Assembly (NCBI RefSeq): GCF_011745625.1
Contig: NW_027191465.1
Location: 124,001 to 188,000, forward strand
Origin: Cladosporium halotolerans
Taxonomy: Eukaryota
DNA: 64,000 bases
Reading direction: 5' to 3'
The position numbers were made by a program, and so were the translations under genes. This document shows, one piece after another, positions 10,101-53,441 of this stretch. The notes below the pieces were generated by a model, which was not told the DNA's origin, did not search any database, and worked only from the letters and a program-made list of their open reading frames with translations. Positions within the stretch are counted from its first letter, which is position 1; every line of letters starts with the position of its first letter.

Positions 10101-13100
10101 CTCGTGGTCTTCGTGCTCGACACCCTCTTGCAAAATCGACGACGTCAACAGCAAAGTGTCATGCACGCCTAGGTACGCCGAGCCCACTGATAGGTCTAAG
10201 CTTGGACAGACCGTGGCCTTTCTACGCCCTGACCGGAGCTGCGTTCCACAGATCTCACAGCTGCTTCGCGCCAGCCGGGAGCGAGGCTGTGCAGCCCAAC
10301 GCTCTCGAAAGCCTTCGCCTGTGACGATCTGACACATGCGGCGTTCCCGAATCATGAAGACCACGCCCCGCCAGATCTCATGACGACTCGAGCCCGACCG
10401 CCCTCAATCAACCGCTGTTGGGCCCAGTAGTGTCACGAATCCATACGAATTTTATCACGCACGACTAGGCCGCCGTTGAAATCGCACGTTTTTGTAGAGA
10501 TGGCCTGCGTTTGTCTGTAGCCGTGACCCGAAGTCTCTTCCGAAGGGCTTCTCGGCCCTCCCTCCCGTCCGGCAAGACCCCGGGGTGCGATAGACTGCAC
10601 TAGAATCTCCGCGCCTGCGGTTCTGACGGCTGCTCAAGTAGTTTCCGAATTGCTCCCGCATTATTATCGGCTTGGGGTTCGTTGGTGTAGGATCATTATT
10701 GCGGTTGCCTGCGAGTCAGAGACTCTACTTCGCGCAGTTAACTGACGAGCCGTGGTTGGGCAGGTCGATGGTCAAGACATCTTTCAAGTGTTTTGTCAGA
10801 ATCTGTGGGAGTTACTCGGTCTAGCGAGAAACTCGCTGCCTCGTTCATGCGTGATCACGGCGTTCTTCGCCTAAGAGCGGCGGAAGGCCGGGCTGCCTCG
10901 TTGGACCAGTGATAAATCAGGGTCGGGATGGCGCTGTGTTCATAGCGCCATTGCATGTTTTCGAGCCAGCTAGGAAAGGAAAGGCGGGCGCGAGATGGAC
11001 TGTAGAGCTCGTCCACATCGTTCAAGTCCGACAAATGTAGCTCCTGTTTCAATCGCTGCGCAGCAGCCGTTGTCGAAAGGCCCATCGTGGTCAGAGGAAA
11101 GAGCATGGAAACACTCTGTCATTGGTTGATTGCCCTTTGAAGACGATGCGCCAAGAAGCCCACGGTATTAGGGGACAACAATCCTATCCGCCATGTCACG
11201 TCGCTGAATGATCTCGCTGGTCAGGCAGTCCGTCTATTCCACTAGATCTTCACACCGTCGCTGCCGACTGTGGGATCGTAGTGACAGCTCGACAAGAGGA
11301 TCCTCCACGCCTTCCAACCTCTCACCGACGACGGTGTCCTTGCGCCTACCACCTCACCGGCTCTTGACAAGCTGCACAGAACCATCGTCTGCGCTTCTTC
11401 CTCTATCAGCCATCCACGACAGTCTCCCTTCTTCGCACGCGAACGGCATCGACAGCTCGGATATTCCAGACTTGATCCTGAAGAAAAGGCGATTACAGTG
11501 ATGTTGTCCCTCCGACAATGATTCCTCGTTACGCCGACATTGGCCAACACAAGAGATCGATCCACGAGAAATATGCCGCAACAGCGACATGATGCCGCAG
11601 AATGGTCATCCAACGCGTACAAATGAGAATAATACGAATGAAGAGGCGCTATAGTAAACGGTAGGTCGGCAGTCTTACGTCGGGGACGAGCCTTTTGCCG
11701 TCTCTCAACCACTTCACGGTACCGCTGTTCAGCATAAAACAAGCAAAAGCTGGGACTTATACAATGAAGAAGAAGATACGACGATGGATTGCGAACGCCT
11801 CAACCGTGTATCTGTCACGAGTCATTTGGGGTTCTGGAGAGAGTCAGTCGACGGAGTCGAAGCTCCGCGATTTAGAGGGCAAATCTGGAAAGGATACAAC
11901 CTCACCTGTAGGGCTCGTGATCGTACGAAGCACCTGTTTGACGCTGCTTGCCAGCCGTCTTGTCAAGTTAGCGTTGTCTCTGGGCTTTGCGACTTCTGAG
12001 GCTCCCTCAGAGGCGCACTGATGCTGGTGGTGTCATCGAAGAGCATCTCGACGCATGCAGTGCAGGGGTCTACCAGGCGACGTGCTTTGTAGAGAGCATT
12101 GAGGTGAGCCACTTGATCTCGAAGCAGTGTCGAGACTACCATCAAATGGTGGCTGTAAACGGTTCACGTCTTCGATACTTTTCGAAGCATGGGAGGCAGC
12201 CGTAGCCAAACGGGGATGGGCTGGGAGCTCTACCGTTCTATATCACCAGCGCATGAGTCTCCAGGTGTCCTGTACATCTTACCCCACGCCGATATTATGC
12301 GCTCTATAGGCACCATGAGAAAGCAGCAGGCAGCGCGTCATCATCCAATTCGACTCCTCATACAGGCACTCCGAGCTGATAGACTAGACGGGCCGATACA
12401 TTGCCCGTATGTTATAAGGCATCCGAACGGTCGCAGGAGCCTTGCGGACGACTGCTCTGAGCAAATTGTCAAACATTATCTCCTAATGATGCTGGCTCCT
12501 CAAACGGAAGCGGCGTTCTGCTTTCGTATCTTTTTACCAAACATCGCATTAAACATGTAGCACAAAGAAAAGACCCTTGATGGATGCTTAACGCATCTAG
12601 TGAAATAACATCGAAGAGGAAAAGAGAGGGCACTATACGAGAAGAATGGAGGATAGGTCATTACTGACGCGGTGAGTTCACTGACATCTGACGAGGCCCC
12701 GCTCATATCAAAGCAACGTGAGACAGAATTGCTGCCTGTAAACTGAATAGCCACACGGCTTACCAGATGCCAATGCATCTGCGCGGGCATCAAGAGGTGT
12801 TGCTTACGCTCAGGTGTCTCTGACACATAGCACTCACAAAGGCAGTACGGAAGCCGCATACTCCTACGCGAATCACCCTGGATCGTCTCAAGGGCGGCAC
12901 AATCTCTCAACCTATTTGACAAGGGACGGCGGTGTCGCCGACGACAAGGCCGACGCGTGTTCTCCCTCGTTCCAGCTTGCCGCCGCCCAAACAGGAAATA
13001 GCAGCGGATTATGCATTGCGGTCTGAAAGAGGGCCTGGCTCGATGCCCGTGGGCATGCTACTGCCTGGTTTGTAGACAAGGCCCAACCCACTCGTGAAGT

Positions 13101-33049: not shown

Positions 33050-34732
33050 TCACCAGTACGCTGGTATGTCTCCCAAATCGTCACCTTTTTGTCCCTTCGT
33101 TGTGGGAAGTCGTCGCCTGTGAATCTTATTCGGTCGGCCAGCCAAACATCTTTTCTCTGCACGTGAATCAGGCAACGCAGCAACGGGCATCGACCCATCC
33201 CACTCTTCATTCAATTCAAATTGAAGCGCTGGATCCAGCCATAAGGAATCGCCACGATCGCCTAGCGACTCCACCGGTCCGAGAACCTTGACTTCGATTA
33301 TCTCCACACCGTCAAGCTGTAGCTCTCGGCCGACAAAGTCTCCGAATGACAGAATATGCGAAGGCCCCGGGTTTTCTCCTTGCGTGGCAAGATACAAGTT
33401 GATAAGATGTAGCGTTCGGAGCGTCGAGGCGTGCTTGGTGAGGAATTCCTTGAGTGTCTCCAACTCGATGCACCAGCCTTCGAGCTCGAGAGACTCCAGA
33501 TGAGGAAAGTGGCGCTTGGCGACCAACTCGTTGAATGGCCGCACAGTTTCCTCGATCATAATCTCTTGCAATTCTGTGCCCTCAATGGGGCCCTTGGCCG
33601 CGAGCGCCAGCTTCGCGATACTTTCTGGGAGCCCGTCCAGCAATCTCGCCGCTTTCTCGAGAGGAAACCTAGCTCCTTCGAATAGAAGCGGCAGACGGAA
33701 GGATCGCAAGTTCTTGAACACGTCTTTGCAGTCATCTGCTGCCGGGAAACCATCCGAAATGTCTTCCAGCGAAAGGTAGTGCGGTTCCTTGTAAGTGACC
33801 AGCGTTTCCTGGGGGAGAGCGAGGATCTGGTAGTGATGGGGGCCAAAGGCGACAGATTGGAGCTCTCCTTTGAGCGCGACTGCTCCCAATGCTAGCATCG
33901 CGTCCATCGTGCATAGTCCGTTATCCAGTTGCCAGTGCCATCTCTCGGGCTCGAGGACGTCACCGAACAGCCGCGTACACAGATCTCTATAGGTCTCGCC
34001 GCGGCGCGCAAGGCCGCGATAGTCCGTAAAAGTGATCTTTCGCAATCTAGGGAATTTGTGCGCAACGTCATGAAGAACCTTCAGGTGTTCATATTGGGCT
34101 GTGAAGATCTCGTGAAATCGGGCGTATCGTTTATACTGCGGGAAACTTTTGTGGCATAGTATGCTACTTGGTTCTGAGTCCTCACCGTCAGGCGTATACA
34201 AGGTGTAAGCGAGTGGCAGAACGGCAGGATCTGTATCCGCTTTCGGCGATGGCGTGAAGTCATCTAAATTCTCCAGGGCCGATATAGTTTCTTCGGATAT
34301 TGTATGAATCCGTAGGAGCTCTGAGAGTCGACCGCTCTTTGGTTGTGATGGTGCAACATTGGCGTCGTTGTCCAGATCGCGAATACCCAGGTCCTCTGCT
34401 TCTTCGCAGGCCGAGAAGTACTCCATGTGCTCGGTAATGTCGTTCATGTCGATTTCGTTGAACTTCCAATGGCTCAGATCGTAGACCATATGCGTCACAT
34501 ATCGACTGAAGAAAGGATCGCAGGCTACTTCCTGAATTTTGATGAGCTCGAGTGGTCTCTTCGCGAATATTACTTTCGTGATGAGATATGGCGAGCTACC
34601 ATTTCGGAACGTGCTGTTCACGAGTCGACAGGAAGCGATATCTCGATGATCGTCGGCGAGGTAGTCGAAAATTCTGTCCAAAAGCTCCGTTGGCAGTGAG
34701 AAAAGGGGGCTTTCGATCGTTGCGGGTGCCAT
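33050..34732 (-). CDS. F-box domain protein with LRR-like C-terminal region (560 aa, single exon)
   Basis: N-terminal LFSLPTELLDRIFDYL....DIASCRLVNSTF is an F-box; C-terminal FPHLESLELEGW and HASTLRTLHL are LRR-like segments. Confidence 0.85.
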   Translation of the reverse strand: MAPATIESPLFSLPTELLDRIFDYLADDHRDIASCRLVNSTFRNGSSPYLITKVIFAKRPLELIKIQEVACDPFFSRYVTHMVYDLSHWKFNEIDMNDITEHMEYFSACEEAEDLGIRDLDNDANVAPSQPKSGRLSELLRIHTISEETISALENLDDFTPSPKADTDPAVLPLAYTLYTPDGEDSEPSSILCHKSFPQYKRYARFHEIFTAQYEHLKVLHDVAHKFPRLRKITFTDYRGLARRGETYRDLCTRLFGDVLEPERWHWQLDNGLCTMDAMLALGAVALKGELQSVAFGPHHYQILALPQETLVTYKEPHYLSLEDISDGFPAADDCKDVFKNLRSFRLPLLFEGARFPLEKAARLLDGLPESIAKLALAAKGPIEGTELQEIMIEETVRPFNELVAKRHFPHLESLELEGWCIELETLKEFLTKHASTLRTLHLINLYLATQGENPGPSHILSFGDFVGRELQLDGVEIIEVKVLGPVESLGDRGDSLWLDPALQFELNEEWDGSMPVAALPDSRAEKRCLAGRPNKIHRRRLPTTKGQKGDDLGDIPAYW

Positions 34733-35283
34733 TTCAACTCAACGACTCTGGCCTGAGAAAACGAAAGAGAAGGGAGATGTGTAGGAATTTCTTGATGGCA
34801 AAGTCTGATCTGCAGATGTCTCCCGAACTTGACCTTCCAGCCCCTTCAATAGAGCATGGCACTGCTCCGATTTTCGCTTTCGTACCTGTCGACCACGCGT
34901 GGCCGAAGTCAAGCGATGGTCACCACCGCTGGGTTTGAGTGAGCGTTTGCAGTGACTTTCGAAATGCACAGCATTGAAGATCGAGGACATAGGGAAACGT
35001 GCATGAATCTTGTTGGCTAGCGCGCGCTTGTTTGCGGGGATCTTGAAACGGCTGGCGCCAGTGGCGGCGCAGCAGTGAACATGACGACGACCTCGTGCTC
35101 TACAGCACAGAAACTCCCTTACTTTCCTCTTGTACAACACCATACACCGAACCTGTGCAGAACAACAACCTACACAGTCGAAGTACGCTTGCTCCCCTAT
35201 CAGCTTGGGCGTTCGCTGACACCACCAGAGGGAACCTACACATCGACCGCGCCAAAACCAAATCTTTAGCGATCATTATCACA

Positions 35284-35415
35284 ATGCCACCGTCGACAAC
35301 TTCCTCCTCCTCTTCTACTTCCACGAAAGGCCCTAAGGTCCCCATCAAGCAAGGATGCTGGTGTGGTGATGACTGCAGCTGCTGCATCATCCCGATTCCT
35401 TGCACGGTTATGTGA
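35284..35415 (+). CDS. 43-aa Ser/Thr- and Cys-rich micropeptide ending in a CAAX box (candidate prenylated peptide or a-factor-like pheromone precursor)
   Basis: ATCACAATG start context; translation MPPSTTSSSSSTSTKGPKVPIKQGCWCGDDCSCCIIPIPCTVM*. Preceded by a C/A-rich leader typical of 5' UTRs here, and occupies its own intergenic space. Confidence 0.65.
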   Translation: MPPSTTSSSSSTSTKGPKVPIKQGCWCGDDCSCCIIPIPCTVM

Positions 35416-36649
35416 AAGATTGCAACATCCACACCGAACCACGCCGCGCACGAACTTGAACGCGCCGGCTTCAAAACCACGGCAAGCTATCTGGATATGT
35501 GCGGATAAGTTCAGAAGAGCTAGAAGGAAAGGATGAGAGTTCGTTGATTGCTATGGCGTTCTGGCTACGGTGTTTTTGAATGAATACTTTACGATACTCC
35601 CTACACCGCGCGAATGAGGCGGTCGCGCTCGCTGGGAATCAGCCCCCACACATCTTATTAGGATACCGCAACAGCCAATGGAAGGTTGTTTAAAAGCATC
35701 CTGTGCCGACCTCGTGGTCTTCTCAGCCGTCCCTCCGCCGAAGTTCGGCCTTCTGGCGTGTGCAGCTGGGCTGGTCGCTTTTGCCCCTTGCTATACTACT
35801 ATGACATGATATTCTCACGTTCGCACAAGGCCGTGATTCATAATCTAATAAAGACCTTGGTTTGCAAGTGGTAGGTTGAGGTAATGACTTTGTGGCCGTA
35901 CTTGTCGCAGGAGACGCCCCATCATGATTCTCAATGGATAGGGCAGAAAAGTGAAATCGCAGGGTACTTCGGTAGAAGGGAATCATCATCTTGTAGTAGT
36001 ACTTGATGAGCACGTCAAGCGCTTGCATGGATCTACCTCACTTTGAGTCGGTGTTCACACTAATGAAGCAATAATCGAACAAAGTTTGATGTTGACAACT
36101 GCGTGCAATTACTACGGCGGACGAGACTGCGAACGGCAGGCGGCCGCCCAACTCAAAGGCTTGAAGACAATGATAGGTAAATACTGGCCGCCTGTACAAA
36201 TCGATAGGGTTCTCTCATTCCATATCGAGGGACGTGTTTTAGGTAGTAAATTTAGATGCTTGCTTTATCGAGGCATCTAACAATACGGAAGCCTCGGCAC
36301 CACGGCACTTGCTTACACCAACCCTAACCCTCCTGCCGGGATCTAGCGTGTGGGGTAGTTCCGCACGTCACAGCAATCGACCACATACGGCGGTAGGCGA
36401 GCACCTTACTAATAATAAGGCACAATGATTGCACATTTCAATCACACCTCTACTGTCATGACCTGAACAGCGCAAGCGCTATCTACTGTACAGCAACTCG
36501 AAGCATGCAGGCATGCACTTCCCACGACCCAATCTCGAACCACCGAAGCTCCTCCTGCCGATTCCCGCACCTCGACGCTTTCAAGGCTCTCTGAGAAGAC
36601 GCGCGCTTTGGCCGAAGTCAGCACCTGCCACGAAGACATTGTTTGTACG

Positions 36650-38693
36650 ATGGACCATGCTGGCGATCTTTTAAAGCCTCCCTCCGAAGCAAAGACTCCC
36701 TCCGTATCTCCCGCGAAGAACCGAAGCCTCTCCGATCCTCCTACCGCCCTTGCACCTTCTCCCTCCTTCCACGAAAAGCTTCGGCGAGAAAGCAAAGACG
36801 ACAATGCCGTACCTACCACACCGAAAGCCACTCGGCGGCCCGACTTTCTCTCCCGCGGCTTAAGCCTGCAGATGCCCAGCCCCGCGCAGCTCTCAAGCGC
36901 CGCGCCGCTGAGTCCGCGGCTGGAACAAACGAATATCCATTCATACATGCAATTGCAAAGCCAAACCGGGAGCCCGGCGACGTCGCTCCCAAGGCACTCG
37001 CGAGGGCTTGACTTTTCCCGTGCTTCCACCAATCTGCATCACTCGACACTTGCAGAGCAGCGCGAGCCGGATTCTTCTCCAGTCACAACACAAAAGGCCA
37101 TGAACATACCCTCTCGCAAGATGTCGATCGGTTCGATGGCTCTTGAGTCGCCAGCAATATTCCCTGGAAGCAATTGGGGCTCGCTAGCACCCGAGCGCAG
37201 CACCGTCAGTAGCTCGGTGGGGAGCGTGAACATGCTTGGAAGTGACAGTGAAAGCAGTGACAGTGACGAGGACGCTAGCATGGCTGGTGATGACGACGAC
37301 CCAATTTATGCGACACCACAGGTTCACAAGCTCCAGAATCCGACCGCATCAACACCTTTCAGCGGTCCGCTCACACCAGGCGGCTCGACCTGGACAAGCG
37401 GACCTGCATTTTCGCCGGCGGCTCAAAGCCTCATGAAAACGATACGCAGGTCACGCCTCCACAGCAAAAATCCGAACCGGTCTCGAAAGCATTCGAGTAG
37501 TGCGAGCAATAGTGGCTACAGCTCAATGGCATCGCCTAGAGCCAATTCCCCGCCACCCATGAGAAGCATCGAGTCAGCAGGGGGTGGATATTTCGGTTGG
37601 AACAAAGCCACGCGAAGCCGACGTGAGAGCCTTGCCCTCGGGACCGATGGTCTGAACTTGTCGAGCGGAAACGATAGCGGAGACGAGGGTTCCGCTGCAG
37701 CCCCGGGCACCCCTGGCGTGATCCGTCGCGCCGTAACTCGCCGTGGCAACCTGTTACCGAAAACCAAAGGCTTCGCACGTGTGAGAGCTGCCTTGACAGA
37801 AGAGTCTCAGCCAGTGGACACTGAAATGAGGCGGGAGTCAGAGACTATCAGACAAGTGCGGGAGAGAGAACCAAGTGTCTCGGCTGACCTCGACTTGCAC
37901 AAGCATCGTCCTCAGACCGGGACCGCAGCCTCTTCGCCTAATCTGTTACCAGCAGTACCCGAGGCCGCACAGGAGGATTTCGGCCGCGATTTGGAAGGCG
38001 ACATCAGTCACAACGACAGGGGATTAGGCATGAACTTTGCCTTACACGCGCACCGCAACAGCGGTGGTACAGATTACTGGAATCGCTTTGACCCGTAAGT
38101 TCTAGTGACACATCCTCTTGTATGTGAGCATGAAGCTAACCGGCCATGACAGCTCAATGCGAACCCCACCCCCGCCCAACTTCAATAGACAAGGGAGTAG
38201 TCTCATGTCTGACATCAATATGGATTCGCCCCTGCCCTCAGAGAACGGCTATTCCATGAGAATGCGCGGCCGAGCGCAATCATCGGCCTCCGACGCTTCA
38301 GAAGCCTTTGGTCCGACGATTAGTAACAACAGCAACACGGCTACCTCTGCCATGACCGACGATATGCACCTTAACAAGTTTAAGCGTCGTCGTGACGATG
38401 ATTTTGACATCGCCACAGTGAAACGCAGAGCGGTTTCTCCAGGAATGAGCACACAGAACAGTCCTGTGCTGACACAGTCGCCTTCGCATCGCGATTCGAA
38501 TAGTGTTTGGGGCCAGCCGCCAGACAAGAAGAAAGAATCACTCACACAGGGTGGTAACAGCGACACGTCCCAGAGCTCACAGCAAGCAGGCTCATCACGT
38601 ACAGGAAGCGGGTCCGCCGCACCTGGAAAGAAGCTAGGGCTGCAGGGCATGGTAGACACCAATGATGGACTGATGAAAATGAGCATTGGGTAA
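36650..38693 (+). CDS. Ser/Pro-rich, largely disordered hypothetical protein (~661 aa, 2 exons)
   Basis: The long ORF is joined by intron 38095-38152 (GTAAGT...GCTAAC...CAG). Conserved-looking blocks: LPRHSRGLDFSRASTNLHHSTL, RRAVTRRGNLLPKTKGFARVRAAL, KRRRDDDFD..VKRRAVSPG. The start codon is uncertain. Confidence 0.85.
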
Positions 38694-50123: not shown

Positions 50124-50753
50124 TGGGCCGGCATGCCTGTCTGCGATCGATCACAGGCCGGCGCGCGACTCGCCCGGCGAGCAGCAGCAGGAGCAGCACC
50201 AGTAGTCAGTGAGGTCGGCGTGTGCTCGCCCGTCATCACCAGCACCAGCACAAGCACACGGCAGATAGCCCGACTACCTTGCCTACCCTACCTTACCCTA
50301 CGGACTGACTCTGCTGCTATCAAAACTATACGCCTGCCCCGTCCCGCGCCCGCGCAGCACCACATGTCCTTAGTCCGCCGCTCTTCTGCCTGATTTGCGC
50401 CGTCCGCCCTGCTTTGCCCGTCGCTTGCGCGCCTGCGTTGCTTCTTCGTCTCGTCCCTTGGTCTCCGCCTTGCGTAGGTGGCCTTGCTGGCGGTTGCATC
50501 GCGCCGCCGTCTCGTGCGACTGATTGGCCGCGCCGCCGCCTGTCCTTCCAAGTGCCCACACCTCGCCCGCCGCCCCGTCCTGTTGCTTCGCCGCTACACA
50601 CGCATTCAGCACACGCATCAAGCCTCGCCAGGCCGCTTGTTTGTCCTCGCCAACCCTCTGCCTCCTCCCTCGTCCCCTCCACGCGCCATCGCGCCGCTGC
50701 CGCCACCGCCTCCGCCTCCGCCCAGCTCACGACTCTCTAAGCGAGCCCGCGGC

Positions 50754-53441
50754 ATGCAAGCCGACGCTGCCCACGCCCGCTCTTCCTCGACTCGCCGTCT
50801 GCGCAAAGCCCCTCCTTCCACCTCCTCCCACCACCACCCGCGTCGCCAGTCCGACCAGCCCAACGCTGCCGCCTCCACCCACCCGGCTGCGCCCGTCGCC
50901 GGCACCGCCTCTGACAACCACCACCCCACCGACGCTGCGCCGCCATACCACCTCGACCAGCCGGCCCGCCAGCACAGCGCACCAGCTGCCGGCCAGCCTG
51001 ACCCGCAGCCGCGCTACTCCCTCTCCGACAAGTCGCCCACCGACCTGCTCGGCCAGCGCTTCGACTCGCTCGCCGTCATCAACAGCTTCGACGCCATTTC
51101 CTACGGTGGTGCCGAGTCGCAGCCTCAGCAGCAGCCTCAGCACGACGCTCAGCCGCAATCACAGTCGAGACCCGAACTTACGCCCGCACTCGAAAAGCCG
51201 CATTCGGAACCCCCACCCCAACCAAAGCGCTCCGCCTCGACCTTCTTCCGCACCAATTCCACACGCAAGCGAGCCTCACTACGGATCGAACAAAGCCTAG
51301 CGGCAGCCGGTCGGCGGATGGAGGACCTCACACCGCGCGGCGGCGACTCCGGCACGCGGAGCCCGCGTCAGCGCTACAGCGATGAGGCTCGCGAGGGGAA
51401 CAAGCTGAAGAAGAAGAGTGGCTTCTCCAGCTTCATGAACAACCTCGTGGGCGCGCCCCGAAAACCGACCATCTCTGCGCCGGAGAACCCTGTACACGTT
51501 ACCCACGTCGGATACGATCAGAACACGGGAGAATTCACGGTATGCCTGCCCGCATATGCTGTCAAGCTGTAAAGTGTTTCATGATGTCTGCTAGCGTAGC
51601 ATGACATCTTTGCACTTTCCTACCCACGCAAGCTTCGAGTACTGACACCTCACAGGGTCTTCCTAAAGAATGGCAGCGCACACTCAAAGCCAACGGCATT
51701 ACCGAGCAGGAACAAAAGAAGAACCCTCAAGCGATCATTGATGTTGTCACTTTCTTCAACGAGCACAACGAAAAGCGAAGCGATGACTCACTATACCATA
51801 AATTCGACAATGCACGACTAAACGACAGCCCTCAGCAGCAAAATGGCATGTCACCAGGCCTGACGCCCGGTGGCTACAATCACGCCGGAAGCCCTCCCAA
51901 CAGCCCGCGTTTCCCCAAAAATGAGCCAGAAAGCTTCGAGAACCCCAGAGCCGCGCCTACGCCTTCAGGAAAGACACCTCAAGGTCTTGGACTCAGCTCG
52001 CCTTCAAGTCCCCGATCAAACAACAACGAATGGATGCCCTTACGACCAGCGCCAAAGCCACCAGGAGGCTCTTCAAACGCAGTGCCTACGAGGCCCGCGC
52101 CTCCTGCACCAGTTCAGCAGCAAGTTCAAACACCGCAAGACGGCCTTCCTCCATTGCGATATGGTGCACAGGAGCAATCTCCGAACCGAGGTCGATCAAA
52201 TACTGGTCCTGCGGGCCAGTACAATGCTTCGCCCGTCTCGTCACCTCAGCAATACCAGCAACAGCAGGAACAGGCTATGCGCGCTGCTCAACAAGCTCTC
52301 AAACAGCAATCACTTGATAGATCCCAGTCAACCAGGCAGCCGGGTTACTCCCATCAGCAGCAACAGCAGCAAGCGCAGCAATCACAACAACAGGCACTCG
52401 CTCCGTCACAAGCCGCTGCACTTGGCCCCGCGCCTCGACCAAGGCAAAGGCCTCGGCAATCTATCACAAACGCCGAAATCATCAGCAAATTGAACAACAT
52501 CTGCAACCCCACGGATCCTACAAAGAAGTTCCGTAACCTGGTGAAAATTGGCCAGGGAGCTTCTGGTGGCGTGTACACTGCGTTTGAAGTCGGCACCAAC
52601 AAATGCGTCGCCATCAAGCAGATGAATCTCGAGCAGCAGCCAAAGAAGGATCTCATCATTAACGAAATTCTGGTCATGAGAGACAGCAAGCACAAGAATG
52701 TCGTCAACTTCATGGACTCCTTCCTCGTGCGCGGCGATCTCTGGGTCTGTATGGAGTACATGGAGGGCGGCAGTTTGACAGACGTCGTCACGTTCAACAT
52801 GATGTCCGAAGGCCAGATCTCCGCCGTCTGCCGCGAAACGCTCCACGGCCTGCAATTCCTGCACTCCAAGGGCGTCATCCACCGCGACATCAAGTCCGAC
52901 AACATCCTCCTCAGCATGGAAGGCAACATCAAGCTCACCGATTTCGGCTTCTGCGCGCAGATCAACGAGTCCCACATGAAGCGCACAACCATGGTCGGCA
53001 CGCCCTACTGGATGGCTCCCGAAGTCGTCACGCGCAAGGAGTACGGGCGCAAGATCGACATCTGGAGCTTGGGCATCATGGCCATCGAGATGATCGAGGG
53101 CGAGCCCCCCTACCTCACCGAGTCGCCGCTGCGCGCGCTCTATCTGATCGCGACCAACGGCACGCCGGCGATCAAGGAGGAGCACAACCTGACGCCTGTC
53201 TTCCGCGATTTCCTCTCGTTTGCTCTCAAGGTGGACCCGGAGAAGCGCGCGAGCGCGCACGATTTGTTGAAGGTAGGAATTCTGCCGTCCCGTAATTGTG
53301 AGAAACGAGAGCACCGAAATTGACTTTTTGATTTTCTAGCACGCTTTCATCCAGACCGCCGAACCGCTCGCCACCCTCTCGCCGCTGGTCAAGGCCGCGC
53401 GCGTCGCGAGAGCCGAAGAGCGCAAGAACAAGGGCTCATAG
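50754..53441 (+). CDS. STE20: PAK family Ser/Thr kinase Ste20 (~834 aa, 3 exons)
   Basis: [31 protein letters not shown]; kinase [35 protein letters not shown]-terminal G-beta-binding-like [10 protein letters not shown]. No PH domain seen, so not Cla4. Introns 51540-51655 and 53273-53339. Confidence 0.95.

What the first reader, a model, noticed from the sequence alone, without database searches (positions are those of the whole stretch)
35284..35415. 43-aa micropeptide with a CAAX box and a Cys cluster: candidate new lipopeptide pheromone or prenylated metal-binding peptide
Seen: the ORF MPPSTTSSSSSTSTKGPKVPIKQGCWCGDDCSCCIIPIPCTVM* has a strong start context (CACAATG) and a canonical CaaX terminus (CTVM), and stands alone divergent from the F-box gene. 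A single TGAAAC lies at 35044-35049. Established: ascomycete a-factor-type precursors (Neurospora mfa-1/Sordaria ppg2, Cryphonectria Mf2, Magnaporthe MF1-1) are tiny, Ser/Thr-rich near the N-terminus and end in C-a-a-M; Trichoderma HPP1 uses C(T/S)VM. Such genes are often missed by annotation. Unusual here: five extra cysteines arranged CxC-xxx-CxCC, a metallothionein-like spacing that classical a-factors lack. Inference: this is a divergent a-type pheromone precursor, or a membrane-anchored (farnesylated/palmitoylated) Cys-cluster peptide.
Basis: partly seen in the sequence, partly recalled or inferred. Interest (0 to 1): 0.75.

Follow-up and report, generated by a model that had tools for sequence, protein, structure and literature searches.

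The report
Cysteine-rich CaaX micropeptide gene, putative a-factor family
This is a real, expressed fungal gene for a 43-residue lipid-tail-signal peptide that belongs to a family published in 2023 as the likely "a-factor" mating pheromone of another fungal class, so it is a good but not new kind of candidate.

Summary
The ORF at 35284-35415 (+) is exactly as described, and it is a real gene. RNA contigs from three studies cover 35134-35664. One of them is spliced over a 46-nt GT..AG intron in the 5'UTR, and the ORF's ATG is the first in that mRNA. A DNA pattern scan of metagenomes found 78 family loci. Counting the window, 78 of 79 members keep C-x-x-M/Q followed by a stop. Window-versus-relative dN/dS is 0.03-0.12, while the flanks are diverged. 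Named relatives are unannotated-function proteins of Cercospora, Myriangium and Pyronema. The C-terminal 19 residues match 12 of 19, without gaps, the Botrytis BCIN_13g03330 protein. Wilson et al. 2023 (PMC10569646) published that protein as the putative Leotiomycete a-factor, so the "unusual" Cys cluster is that family's hallmark. Family promoters are enriched for TGAAAC, which resembles a Ste12 site. The pheromone function remains unproven: the published orthologues are not expressed by mating type. The 2025 paper on an Aspergillus fumigatus a-factor-like pheromone (ppgB) could not be read. Verdict: a new member of a known kind; moderate interest.

The parts
35044..35049 (+). TGAAAC, a pheromone-response-element-like (Ste12-type) promoter site, 240 nt upstream of the ATG
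   Evidence: Seen in the sequence. Every subgroup relative with more than 200 nt of upstream sequence has the same hexamer at -193 to -240. Family-wide, 28 of 43 non-redundant upstream regions carry it against 4 of 43 downstream regions, and there are 44 sites against 11.4 +/- 3.3 in Markov-1 simulations. That Ste12 binds it is recalled knowledge and was not tested.
35134..35182 (+). Exon 1, the 5'UTR (minimal extent; the true transcription start is unknown)
   Evidence: The first piece of RNA contig X16 record 2 lies at 35134-35182. It contains no ATG.
35183..35228 (+). 46-nt intron in the 5'UTR: GTACGC...CTGAC (35216-35220)...AG
   Evidence: The X16 joint runs from 35182 to 35232 with the letters AGC in between. 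I read this as a splice of 35183-35228 plus one substitution at 35231. The intron sequence is printed. A GTAAGT...GCTGAC...AG intron sits at the same place in the L002 subgroup. The GT..AG orientation places the transcript on the + strand.
35229..35283 (+). The rest of the 5'UTR, in exon 2
   Evidence: RNA contigs X16 and X19 start their main piece at 35232. There is no ATG before 35284 in the inferred mRNA.
35284..35355 (+). CDS residues 1-24: the MPPST start, a Ser/Thr-rich variable leader and the basic KGPKVPIKQG junction
   Evidence: The leader varies in length and sequence across the family, while M1 is invariant, P2 is at 90% or more, and a K/P-rich junction recurs. The N-terminal pN/pS is 0.162.
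35356..35400 (+). CDS residues 25-39: the Cys cluster CWCGDDCSCC followed by IIPIP
   Evidence: It is invariant in 44 of 44 aligned members, although CWCGDDC.CC was fixed by the search pattern. The P before the CaaX Cys was not in the pattern and is still invariant. Named proteins found by HMMER, which did not use the pattern, also carry the motif.
35401..35415 (+). CaaX box CTVM (Cys40 is the predicted farnesyl acceptor) plus the TGA stop
   Evidence: Of 79 family members, 78 keep C-x-x-M/Q followed by a stop: 67 directly and 11 after a predicted intron. CTVM is the commonest end, in 46 of the 67 direct ends. The tail pN/pS is 0.130.
35416..35664 (+). 3'UTR, up to where the RNA contigs end
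   Evidence: X16 reaches 35664, X19 reaches 35660, and X17 (a polyA library) covers 35321-35589. Six of the 8 places with listed differences lie in the 3'UTR at 35461 or beyond, one lies at 35425, and one lies in the CDS.
35593..35600 (+). GATACTCC, a 3'UTR element shared only with the closest subgroup
   Evidence: Subgroup relatives carry (T)GATGATACTCC 148-185 nt after the stop. The window has ACGATACTCC at +177. Its function is unknown.

Best explanation
A small RNA polymerase II gene (two exons, with a 46-nt intron in the 5'UTR) encodes a 43-residue precursor. It is the Dothideomycete-type member of a family of Cys-cluster CaaX micropeptides found widely in the Pezizomycotina. [quoted passage not shown] The proposed working is as follows. 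Cys40 of CTVM is farnesylated, TVM is clipped off and the new C-terminus is methylated. The variable Ser/Thr-rich leader is removed near the basic K-x-P-x-K junction. The product is a lipopeptide of about 16-19 residues, CWCGDDCSCCIIPIPC-farnesyl-OMe, with five free cysteines. I take an exported a-factor-type signal read by a Ste3-type receptor, under Ste12-type promoter control, as the leading reading. What is shown: the transcript, the splice, coding selection, family membership, strict CaaX conservation and promoter motif enrichment. What is inferred: every biochemical step, export and the receptor. My confidence that this is a real gene of that family is about 0.95, that it is prenylated about 0.8, and that it is a pheromone about 0.5. 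The figure in the confidence field is for the whole statement, pheromone included.
For: RNA. Contigs from three RNA libraries of three studies cover the ORF: X16 at 35134-35182 plus 35232-35664 with a splice joint, X17 (polyA) at 35321-35589, and X19 at 35232-35660. The ORF's ATG is the first in the inferred 485-nt mRNA.
Coding. Against 14 distinct relatives' CDS, dN/dS is 0.025-0.12 outside the pattern-fixed codons (one pair was saturated and undefined). The all-pairs pN/pS is 0.149. The 5' and 3' flanks barely align. The only CDS difference in the RNA contigs, 35394 G>A, is synonymous at Pro37.
Family. HMMER against 1.84 billion representatives gave 3 hits, and a profile search gave 5. These include Cercospora beticola XP_023459653, Myriangium duriaei KAF2149645 and a Pyronema omphalodes protein. 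The metagenome scan found 79 loci, of which 78 are family members.
CaaX. It is kept in 78 of 79 members.
Link to the published family. The window's last 19 residues, CWCGDDCSCCIIPIPCTVM, and the Botrytis sequence CLECDGYECCCIPIPCTVM (supplement S3 of PMC10569646) share 12 of 19 positions without a gap. All the Leotiomycete sequences in supplement S10 keep C-x2-C-D/G...CCC-IP(IP)-C-x-x-M/L, and Antarctomyces starts with MPPS. Loci L008, L038, L039 and L064 combine a Leotiomycete-like MCT start with CWCGDDC.
a-factor likeness. The MPPST start and S/T-rich leader resemble the Sordariomycete a-factors beginning MPST...TKVPQ.
Promoter. TGAAAC is the second most enriched hexamer upstream, in 28 of 43 regions against 4 of 43 downstream.
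Against: Wilson et al. found no mating-type-dependent expression of the orthologue in 3 heterothallic Leotiomycetes. They found near-identity of the protein across whole families. Of 12 species without a functional STE3, only 1 lacked the gene. They state themselves that these points argue against a classical pheromone role.
The GY motif they count as a-factor-like (87 Leotiomycete sequences) is absent here, where GDD stands instead.
No cyanate lyase gene, the Sordariomycete a-factor neighbour described in PMC3068285, lies within about 6 kb.
Five free cysteines are unknown in characterised a-factors.
The same 17-residue module sits behind a ubiquitin-like fold in one amoebozoan protein, P0006. 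That fits a general lipid-anchor module better than a species signal.
The window's TGAAAC is followed by G, not A, and the window lacks the TGACGT site its relatives have.
The RNA comes from environmental and plant-associated metatranscriptomes, so it says nothing about mating.
I could not read Krappmann et al. 2025 on the Aspergillus fumigatus a-factor-like pheromone (ppgB). If PpgB is unrelated and has its own Dothideomycete orthologues, the pheromone reading falls.
Confidence: 0.5

Rival explanations
1. It is the same gene and the same CaaX processing, but the product stays in the cell. On this reading it is a farnesyl-anchored micropeptide, perhaps also S-acylated on the neighbouring cysteines. 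Its Cys/Asp cluster would bind a metal such as Cu(I) or Zn, or serve redox or lipid-anchor functions. It would not be a mating signal.
For: The published orthologues are expressed independently of mating type, at RPKM 46-198 in Botrytis tissues, and the gene is retained where STE3 is defective or deleted. The Cys cluster and one Asp are invariant from Pyronema (Pezizomycetes) to the Dothideomycetes. That is an unusually deep conservation for a species-recognition signal. The module also occurs behind a ubiquitin-like fold in Planoprotostelium, with a C-terminal Leu. The transcript is present in environmental and plant metatranscriptomes. From recalled knowledge, cysteines next to a CaaX box are typical S-acylation sites, and C-x-C...C-x-C runs are typical of Cu(I)-thiolate sites.
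Against: No metallothionein, CYSTM or other Pfam family matches any of the 44 members at E<=1, and there is no PDB relative at E<=10. The leader has the MP(P)ST, S/T-rich look of a-factor precursors. The promoters are enriched for TGAAAC. No other a-factor candidate is known for these fungal classes, according to PMC10569646. A 43-residue protein whose first 24 residues are freely variable looks more like a precursor than a finished protein.
Confidence: 0.35
2. It is a member of a known Cys-rich small-protein family: a CYSTM tail-anchored stress protein or a fungal metallothionein.
For: The Atlas feature search placed a 56-aa ascomycete cluster auto-named 'CYSTM domain-containing' at 0.82 and a PF12734 cluster at 0.78. 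Both scores are below the tool's 0.9 level for anything more than a lead.
Against: Pfam gives no hit for the window ORF at E<=1, and 0 of 44 family members match CYSTM or any metallothionein family. The Cys stretch contains two Asp and a Gly, so it is not a membrane helix. The strictly kept CaaX-stop is not a CYSTM feature.
Confidence: 0.03
3. It is a chance ORF on a non-coding transcript or in another gene's UTR.
For: Short ORFs are common, and 6 of 594 in the window end in a CaaX-like way. AlphaFold gives no fold (mean pLDDT 51.8). The exact protein is not in the 15-billion-sequence collection.
Against: dN/dS is 0.03-0.12 with near-saturated synonymous sites, and the flanks are unalignable. 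The stop codon sits directly after the CaaX box in 78 of 79 members. The ORF's ATG is the first in a discrete transcript of about 485 nt.
Confidence: 0.01

Closest known systems
Putative a-factor pheromone of the Leotiomycetes (Botrytis cinerea BCIN_13g03330 and homologues in at least 111 species; Wilson et al. 2023, PLoS One, PMC10569646)
   Same: Both are small unannotated genes for proteins of 43-64 residues. Both have an S/T-rich variable leader and a basic junction. Both have an 11-residue Cys cluster with an invariant Asp at its fifth place, followed by CC(C)-I-P-(I-P)-C-T-V-M and a stop. The window shares 12 of its last 19 residues without a gap.
   Different: The cluster here is C-W-C-G-D-D-C-x-C-C rather than C-x-x-C-D-G-[YFV]-x-C-C-C, so there is no GY motif. 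The protein starts MPPST rather than MCTST. The window peptide, at 43 aa, is shorter than the published range of 45-64. The taxon differs: the named relatives are Dothideomycetes and one Pezizomycete.
Classical a-factor-type lipopeptide pheromone precursors (Neurospora mfa-1, Sordaria ppg2, Gibberella ppg2, yeast MFA1/2)
   Same: Both are tiny precursors. Both start M-P-(P)-S-T with an S/T-rich leader and a K-x-P stretch. Both end C-(V/T)-V-M. By recalled knowledge, yeast a-factor genes have TGAAAC-type promoter sites.
   Different: The classical precursors are 21-24 residues long with a single Cys. This family has 6-7 Cys and a conserved acidic cluster. Mating-type-specific expression, farnesylation, export and receptor activation are shown for the classical ones and for none of this family. 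There is no cyanate lyase neighbour here.
Trichoderma/Hypocreales hybrid-type precursor HPP1 (PMC3068285)
   Same: Both have a C(T/S)VM end, with a polar first 'a' residue (the CPAX type) and Met as the last residue, which predicts farnesylation.
   Different: HPP1 has three repeats of (LI)GC(TS)VM and Kex2 sites. This family has one CaaX box, no repeats and a Cys cluster. L041, which ends CTVMRK, is the only member with residues after the box.
Aspergillus fumigatus a-factor-like pheromone (ppgB homologue; Krappmann et al. 2025, Curr Biol 35:2414)
   Same: It is described by title only as an a-factor-like secreted pheromone of a non-Sordariomycete. I saw it only in the reference lists and one sentence of PMC11787670 and PMC13712828.
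   Different: Unknown. The paper is not held, so I could not compare sequences. This is the most important missing comparison.
Membrane-anchored ubiquitin-fold proteins with a CaaX end (the MUB family, recalled) and Planoprotostelium PROFUN_15513 (P0006)
   Same: P0006 ends GG-CWCGDDCQCCILPCSIL. Over the 17 positions the two tails share, once the window's IP insertion is skipped, P0006 differs from the window at 4 (S/Q, I/L, T/S, M/L).
   Different: The window protein has no ubiquitin fold. The last residue of P0006 is Leu, which predicts geranylgeranyl (recalled rule). Only one such fusion was seen.

Membership tests
BCIN_13g03330 family (putative a-factor of Leotiomycetes, PMC10569646) | Small protein (<=100 aa; published range 45-64 aa) from a usually unannotated gene | tested here: met
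   The protein has 43 aa. The exact sequence is absent from the 15-billion-protein collection, and 0 of 10 related peptides are in it.
BCIN_13g03330 family (putative a-factor of Leotiomycetes, PMC10569646) | C-terminal CAAX/CPAX, most often CTVM, directly before the stop | tested here: met
   The window has CTVM followed by TGA. The feature is kept in 78 of 79 family members, and CTVM makes up 46 of the 67 direct ends.
BCIN_13g03330 family (putative a-factor of Leotiomycetes, PMC10569646) | Ser/Thr-rich N-terminal part | tested here: met
   Residues 4-14 are all Ser or Thr, and the same holds across alignment A4.
BCIN_13g03330 family (putative a-factor of Leotiomycetes, PMC10569646) | Cys cluster followed by CC(C)IP(IP)C before the last three residues | tested here: met
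   A by-eye gap-free comparison with the sequences printed in supplements S3 and S10 gives 12 of 19 identical, including CC.IPIPCTVM.
BCIN_13g03330 family (putative a-factor of Leotiomycetes, PMC10569646) | GY motif near the C-terminus (87 Leotiomycete sequences) | tested here: not met
   The window has G-D-D at that place, and none of the 44 aligned members has GY there. The paper itself reports members without GY.
a-factor-type lipopeptide mating pheromone (functional class) | Short precursor with a single C-terminal CaaX box and an N-terminal leader that is removed | tested here: inconclusive
   The CaaX box and a variable leader are present. Removal of the leader is inferred only from where conservation begins.
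a-factor-type lipopeptide mating pheromone (functional class) | Expression specific to one mating type or induced in mating | not testable with these tools
   Only metatranscriptome contigs were available. Published data for Leotiomycete orthologues are negative in 3 species.
a-factor-type lipopeptide mating pheromone (functional class) | Farnesylation, AAX removal, carboxymethylation; export by a Ste6-type transporter; activation of a Ste3-type receptor | not testable with these tools
   No biochemical data are available. Met as the last residue predicts farnesyl transfer (passage in PMC3068285).
a-factor-type lipopeptide mating pheromone (functional class) | Pheromone-response-element-like sites (TGAAAC[A]) in the promoter | tested here: met
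   The window has one site at 35044-35049. In the family, 28 of 43 upstream regions have a site against 4 of 43 downstream regions, and there are 44 sites against 11.4 +/- 3.3 simulated. Binding by Ste12 was not tested.
a-factor-type lipopeptide mating pheromone (functional class) | Sordariomycete synteny: the gene lies downstream of a cyanate lyase gene (PMC3068285) | tested here: not met
   There is no Cyanate_lyase hit among the 16 large ORFs of the window or the 15 ORFs within about 6 kb. Synteny is not expected across classes, so this has little weight.
CYSTM (PF12734) | Match to the Pfam model; a Cys-rich C-terminal membrane helix | tested here: not met
   The window ORF has 0 families at E<=1, and 0 of 44 members match. 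The stretch contains Asp-Asp and Gly.
Metallothioneins (Pfam families) | Match to a metallothionein model; metal-thiolate cluster | tested here: not met
   No metallothionein family appears among the Pfam hits of the 44 members. Metal binding itself cannot be tested here.
Membrane-anchored ubiquitin-fold proteins | A ubiquitin-like fold ahead of the CaaX tail | tested here: not met
   The window protein is 43 aa with no fold (pLDDT 51.8). Only P0006 has the fold.

The most novel reading that the evidence does not exclude
The Cys-cluster lipopeptide is the ancestral a-factor of the Pezizomycotina. It would be a farnesylated pheromone whose head is held in shape by a metal ion or by disulfides, which is a structural class of fungal pheromone not yet described. 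The short single-Cys a-factors of the Sordariomycetes would then be stripped-down descendants that kept only the MPST leader and the C-V/T-V-M end. The near-identical module behind a ubiquitin-like fold in an amoebozoan would then show that the module is older than its use as a pheromone, or that it was taken up from fungal prey.
Probability: 0.3. Interest if true: 0.75.

Novelty: new member of a known kind. Interest (0 to 1): 0.5.

Why it matters
The a-type pheromone gene was long missing from filamentous ascomycetes outside the Sordariomycetes (stated in PMC10569646). Dothideomycetes include many crop pathogens whose sexual cycles are poorly known. This locus gives a concrete, expressed and strongly conserved candidate for that class. 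It also shows that the Leotiomycete candidate family reaches at least Dothideomycetes and a Pezizomycete, with an invariant CWCGDDC-x-CC core. It supplies testable regulatory sites (TGAAAC and TGACGT). If the pheromone reading fails, the gene is still a deeply conserved prenylated Cys-cluster micropeptide of unknown cell function that annotation pipelines miss.

Tried and rejected
- Word-indexed protein search with the single peptide found no candidates.
- No whole genome is held for this window, so paralogues, STE3, STE6 and the MAT genes of the same genome could not be sought.
- The 'longer' search for fused forms gave 9 hits. All are over-extended ORF calls that contain an internal MP[PA] start or read into an intron, and none has a Pfam domain. 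The tool warns that a blank from this search is weak evidence.
- AlphaFold2 on a 44-sequence alignment gave mean pLDDT 51.8, pTM 0.15 and no secondary structure, so no fold search was made.
- A profile search against PDB sequences gave 0 hits at E<=10.
- An exact look-up of 10 related peptides, meant to obtain organism names, found 0 of 10 in the collection, so the classes of the 78 metagenome loci remain unknown.
- tblastn of the two window neighbours (the F-box protein and the 482-aa downstream ORF) against the 79 loci gave no hits. The flanks held were only 600 nt, so synteny is untested rather than absent.
- In the three RNA runs laid on 34000-37500, nothing outside 35134-35664 was covered.
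- Earlier findings of this scan: nothing by place, sequence or words.
- Literature. The motif strings CWCGDDC, CWCGD, IPCTVM, CCVIPC, CCIIPC, IPCVVM and IPCSVM appear in no main text except one unrelated hit. Supplements are not covered by that search. 'a-factor pheromone' + Dothideomycetes from 2023 on, and 'pheromone precursor' + CAAX + Dothideomycetes without a year limit, each found the same 2 papers. BCIN_13g03330 is named only in the Wilson paper. Krappmann et al. 2025 is not held under its DOI or its PubMed id.
- I did not run a program alignment of the window peptide with the Leotiomycete sequences, because these came from a paper's supplement and are not stored proteins. The comparison is by eye.
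- No complex prediction was sent, since no binding claim is made.
Full report
**1. The observation**
It runs from 35284 to 35415 on the + strand and encodes 43 residues, MPPSTTSSSSSTSTKGPKVPIKQGCWCGDDCSCCIIPIPCTVM, followed by TGA. The start context is ATCACAATGCC. TGAAAC lies at 35044-35049. The left neighbour (33050-34732, minus strand) is divergent and matches F-box-like PF12937 at E 1.2e-5. The window is ordinary fungal chromosome. It carries Fungal_trans, Zn2Cys6, MFS, GMC oxidoreductase, RNase T2, F-actin capping alpha, a PAK-type kinase, Zds_C and a Miro GTPase. By itself a CaaX-like end is not remarkable, since 6 of 594 ATG-ORFs of 20 aa or more in the window have one. Only this ORF combines such an end with 5 or more Cys in its last 20 residues.

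**2. It is transcribed and spliced**
Twenty of the 24 listed public runs hold part of 35150-35650, 12 of them hold half or more of its sampled words, and 6 are on record as RNA. I laid four runs on 34000-37500.
- X1 covers the whole stretch identically in a 148-kb contig and may be the window's own source, so it is not independent.
- Each of the three RNA libraries, from three different studies, gave one contig, and each contig covers the ORF.
- X16 (metatranscriptome cDNA) lies at 35134-35182 and 35232-35664. X17 (a polyA library, 99% or more alike) lies at 35321-35589. X19 lies at 35232-35660.
- The X16 contig jumps from 35182 to 35232 with the letters AGC in between. I read this as removal of 35183-35228 plus one substitution. 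That stretch is GTACGC...CTGAC...AG and is 46 nt long.
- The orientation of the splice sites puts the RNA on the + strand.
- In the resulting mRNA of about 485 nt, the ORF's ATG is the first ATG.

Contigs cannot give transcript ends or expression levels, and I make no claim about either.

**3. It is protein-coding and under strong constraint**
HMMER against 1.84 billion representatives found three relatives. A profile search found five. The named ones are hypothetical proteins of Cercospora beticola (40 aa), Myriangium duriaei (55 aa), Pyronema omphalodes (45 aa) and Pseudocercospora musae (a 67-aa model with a wrong 3' end), plus one amoebozoan protein discussed in section 7.

A scan of the metagenome contigs with the back-translated CWCGDDC-x-CC pattern returned 79 loci. 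Seventy-eight of them encode the same kind of peptide: MP[PAS]ST or a variant, a Ser/Thr-rich stretch of variable length, a K/P-rich junction, CWCGDDC[QSE]CC, then x-[ILV]-P-(I-P)-C-x-x-[MQ] and a stop. L029 is a chance match.

The part after CC was not in the search pattern. Even so, of 79 members (78 loci plus the window), 67 end directly in a CaaX tetrapeptide. The counts are CTVM 46, CSIM 4, CSVM 4, CTIQ 3, CCVM 3, CVVM 2, CVLM 2, CTIM 2 and CAVM 1. Eleven more reach P-C-x-x-M-stop after a predicted GT..AG intron; a regex found 10 of these, and I read L056 by eye. One member, L041, reads CTVMRK-stop.

In the window's own subgroup there are 18 sequences and 15 distinct CDS. Outside the pattern-fixed codons, dN/dS of the window against the other 14 CDS is 0.025-0.12, with one pair saturated. 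Synonymous differences reach 48-78% of synonymous sites. The all-pairs pN/pS is 0.149 overall, 0.130 in the tail and 0.162 in the N-terminal part. The 200 nt before the ATG and the 250 nt after the stop hardly align across the same sequences. The only CDS difference seen in the RNA contigs, 35394 G>A, leaves Pro37 unchanged; the other seven listed differences lie in the 3'UTR. A chance ORF is excluded.

**4. What family it is**
No Pfam family matches the ORF at E<=1 or any of 44 aligned members in a consistent way. In particular, neither CYSTM, which the Atlas feature search had hinted at with scores of 0.78-0.82, nor any metallothionein family matches. No PDB sequence matches at E<=10. AlphaFold2 gives no fold (pLDDT 51.8).

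The literature gave the answer. Wilson et al. 2023 (PMC10569646) screened Leotiomycete genomes for proteins of 100 aa or fewer ending in CAAX/CPAX. I read passages, sections 21 and 27 (part 1), and supplements S2, S3 and S10. [quoted passage not shown] It is 45-64 aa long, mostly ends in CTVM, has an S/T-rich N-terminus, and has homologues in at least 111 species.

Supplement S3 prints its end as ...KCLECDGYECCCIPIPCTVM. Placed without gaps against the window's CWCGDDCSCCIIPIPCTVM, 12 of 19 positions agree: the first Cys, the Asp at place 5, CC, and IPIPCTVM. The Myriangium protein (CWCGDDCQCCCIPIPCVVM) also agrees at 12 of 19. In both types the cluster spans 11 residues from the first Cys to the last Cys of the CC(C) run. 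The S10 list shows the same architecture in all Leotiomycetes, and the Antarctomyces sequence starts with MPPS. Four metagenome loci (L008, L038, L039, L064) join a Leotiomycete-like MCT start to CWCGDDC.

I therefore file the window ORF in this family. The one listed feature it lacks is the GY motif.

**5. How it most likely works**
- *Shown:* a discrete spliced mRNA, a coding frame under selection, an invariant Cys/Asp core, and a CaaX box that always abuts the stop.
- *Inferred from the established CaaX pathway (recalled; the rule that Met as last residue predicts farnesyl is also stated in PMC3068285):* Cys40 is farnesylated, TVM is removed and the new C-terminus is methylated.
- *Inferred from the conservation profile:* the first 20 or so residues are a disposable leader, and the conserved product begins near K-x-P-x-K-x-[PGA]-C. 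That gives a lipopeptide of about 16-19 residues with five free cysteines.
- *Inferred by analogy only:* export by a Ste6-type transporter and reception by a Ste3-type receptor.

One new piece of regulatory evidence comes from an unbiased hexamer count on 43 non-redundant upstream regions (500 nt each, both strands). The top two words are ACGTCA/TGACGT, in 31 of 43 upstream against 3 of 43 downstream regions, and TGAAAC/GTTTCA, in 28 of 43 against 4 of 43. There are 44 TGAAAC sites, against 11.4 +/- 3.3 in Markov-1 simulations with a maximum of 22 in 500. In the window's subgroup, a TGACGTA...TGAAACA pair sits at -190 to -250 in otherwise diverged promoters. Some other subgroups carry 3-5 TGAAAC copies. 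The window keeps TGAAAC(G) at -240 but has no TGACGT. TGAAACA is, by recalled knowledge, the yeast pheromone response element bound by Ste12, and TGACGT is an ATF/CREB-type bZIP site. Binding was not tested.

**6. For and against the pheromone reading**
*For:*
- The a-factor-like layout. Compare MPSTAASTKVPQTTMNFNGYCVVM of Neurospora with MPPST...KGPKVPIKQG...CTVM here.
- The strict conservation of the CaaX box.
- The promoter sites.
- The paper's statement that no a-factor gene had been found in filamentous ascomycetes outside the Sordariomycetes.

*Against, in the authors' own words:*
- There is no mating-type-dependent expression in three heterothallic species.
- The protein is nearly identical across whole families.
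- The gene persists in 11 of 12 species that lack a functional STE3.

- The core is conserved from a Pezizomycete to the Dothideomycetes.
- Five free cysteines have no precedent in characterised a-factors.
- There is the amoebozoan fusion described in section 7.
- No cyanate lyase gene lies within about 6 kb, although synteny across classes is not expected.

I put the pheromone reading at about 0.5. I put a cell-retained lipid-anchored, metal-binding or redox peptide at about 0.35.

[quoted passage not shown] 2025) exists. I saw it only in reference lists and in one sentence that calls the gene a ppgB homologue. It is not held. Whether that pheromone belongs to this family is the most important open point, and it may change both the odds and the novelty rating.

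**7. An unexplained relative**
P0006 of Planoprotostelium fungivorum (85 aa) has a ubiquitin-like fold over residues 1-68. The Atlas structure search gives TM 0.65 to ubiquitin clusters. Pfam ubiquitin scores E 1.1e-4, which is below its cut-off. The fold is followed by GG and then CWCGDDCQCCILPCSIL. No other fusion turned up. None of the 78 metagenome family loci is fused, and none of the 9 'longer' hits is a true fusion. It could be a gene taken from fungal prey, contamination, or a sign that the module is an older lipid-anchor device. I could not get the DNA of that contig.

**8. Novelty and verdict**
The kind is known, so this is a new member. New here, as far as my searches show (paper supplements and the unavailable 2025 paper are not covered), are four points:
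- the extension of the family to Dothideomycetes and a Pezizomycete;
- the invariant CWCGDDC-x-CC form of the cluster;
- the conserved promoter words;
- the ubiquitin-fold fusion.

Interest is moderate. The gene makes the a-factor question in Dothideomycetes directly testable, but its function is still open.

Noticed in passing
P0006 (Planoprotostelium fungivorum PROFUN_15513, 85 aa): A ubiquitin-like fold (residues 1-68) is followed by GG and then CWCGDDCQCCILPCSIL. This is the fungal C-terminal module almost letter for letter, but it ends in Leu. It is the only fusion seen and the only non-fungal member.
   Followed up: partly
Upstream 500 nt of loci L001-L079 (43 non-redundant regions) and window 34784-35283: TGACGT/ACGTCA, an ATF/CREB-like site, is the most enriched upstream hexamer of the family: 31 of 43 upstream regions against 3 of 43 downstream. 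In the window's subgroup it lies about 17 nt before TGAAACA. The window itself has lost it.
   Followed up: partly
window 35593-35600; loci L002, L012, L014, L018, L022, L024, L033, L034 at +148 to +185 after the stop: A 3'UTR element, (T)GATGATACTCC, is shared by the closest subgroup in otherwise diverged 3'UTRs. It lies about 65 nt before the point where the RNA contigs end in the window.
   Followed up: partly
L041 (417 nt of upstream sequence held; peptide MPGGSTTSN...CWCGDDCQCCNIPCTVMRK): This is the only family member whose CaaX box is not terminal: CTVM is followed by R-K and then the stop. Its leader also carries ADPAK repeats. It may be a decaying copy, or a form that needs C-terminal trimming.
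   Followed up: no
L001, L008, L013, L015, L026, L038, L039, L051, L056, L064, L076: In these loci a short GT..AG intron interrupts the coding tail after CC(I), or in L056 after IPC. Metagenome gene callers therefore produce wrong, long C-termini, and P0001, P0005, P0012 and P0013 show the same error.
   Followed up: partly
window 50478-53320 (+): Two adjacent ORFs carry a P21-Rho-binding domain and a protein kinase domain, which makes a PAK-type (Ste20/Cla4-like) kinase gene about 15 kb from the peptide gene. I assume no link.
   Followed up: no
window, minus strand, ORF reported at 11009 (212 aa): This ORF has 20 Cys and ends ...[13 protein letters not shown]. It is the only other ORF in the window with 5 or more Cys in its last 20 residues. 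It is probably the frame of a GC-rich simple repeat.
   Followed up: no
window 36650-38098 (+): This 482-aa Ser/Pro-rich ORF downstream of the peptide gene has no Pfam family at E<=1.
   Followed up: no
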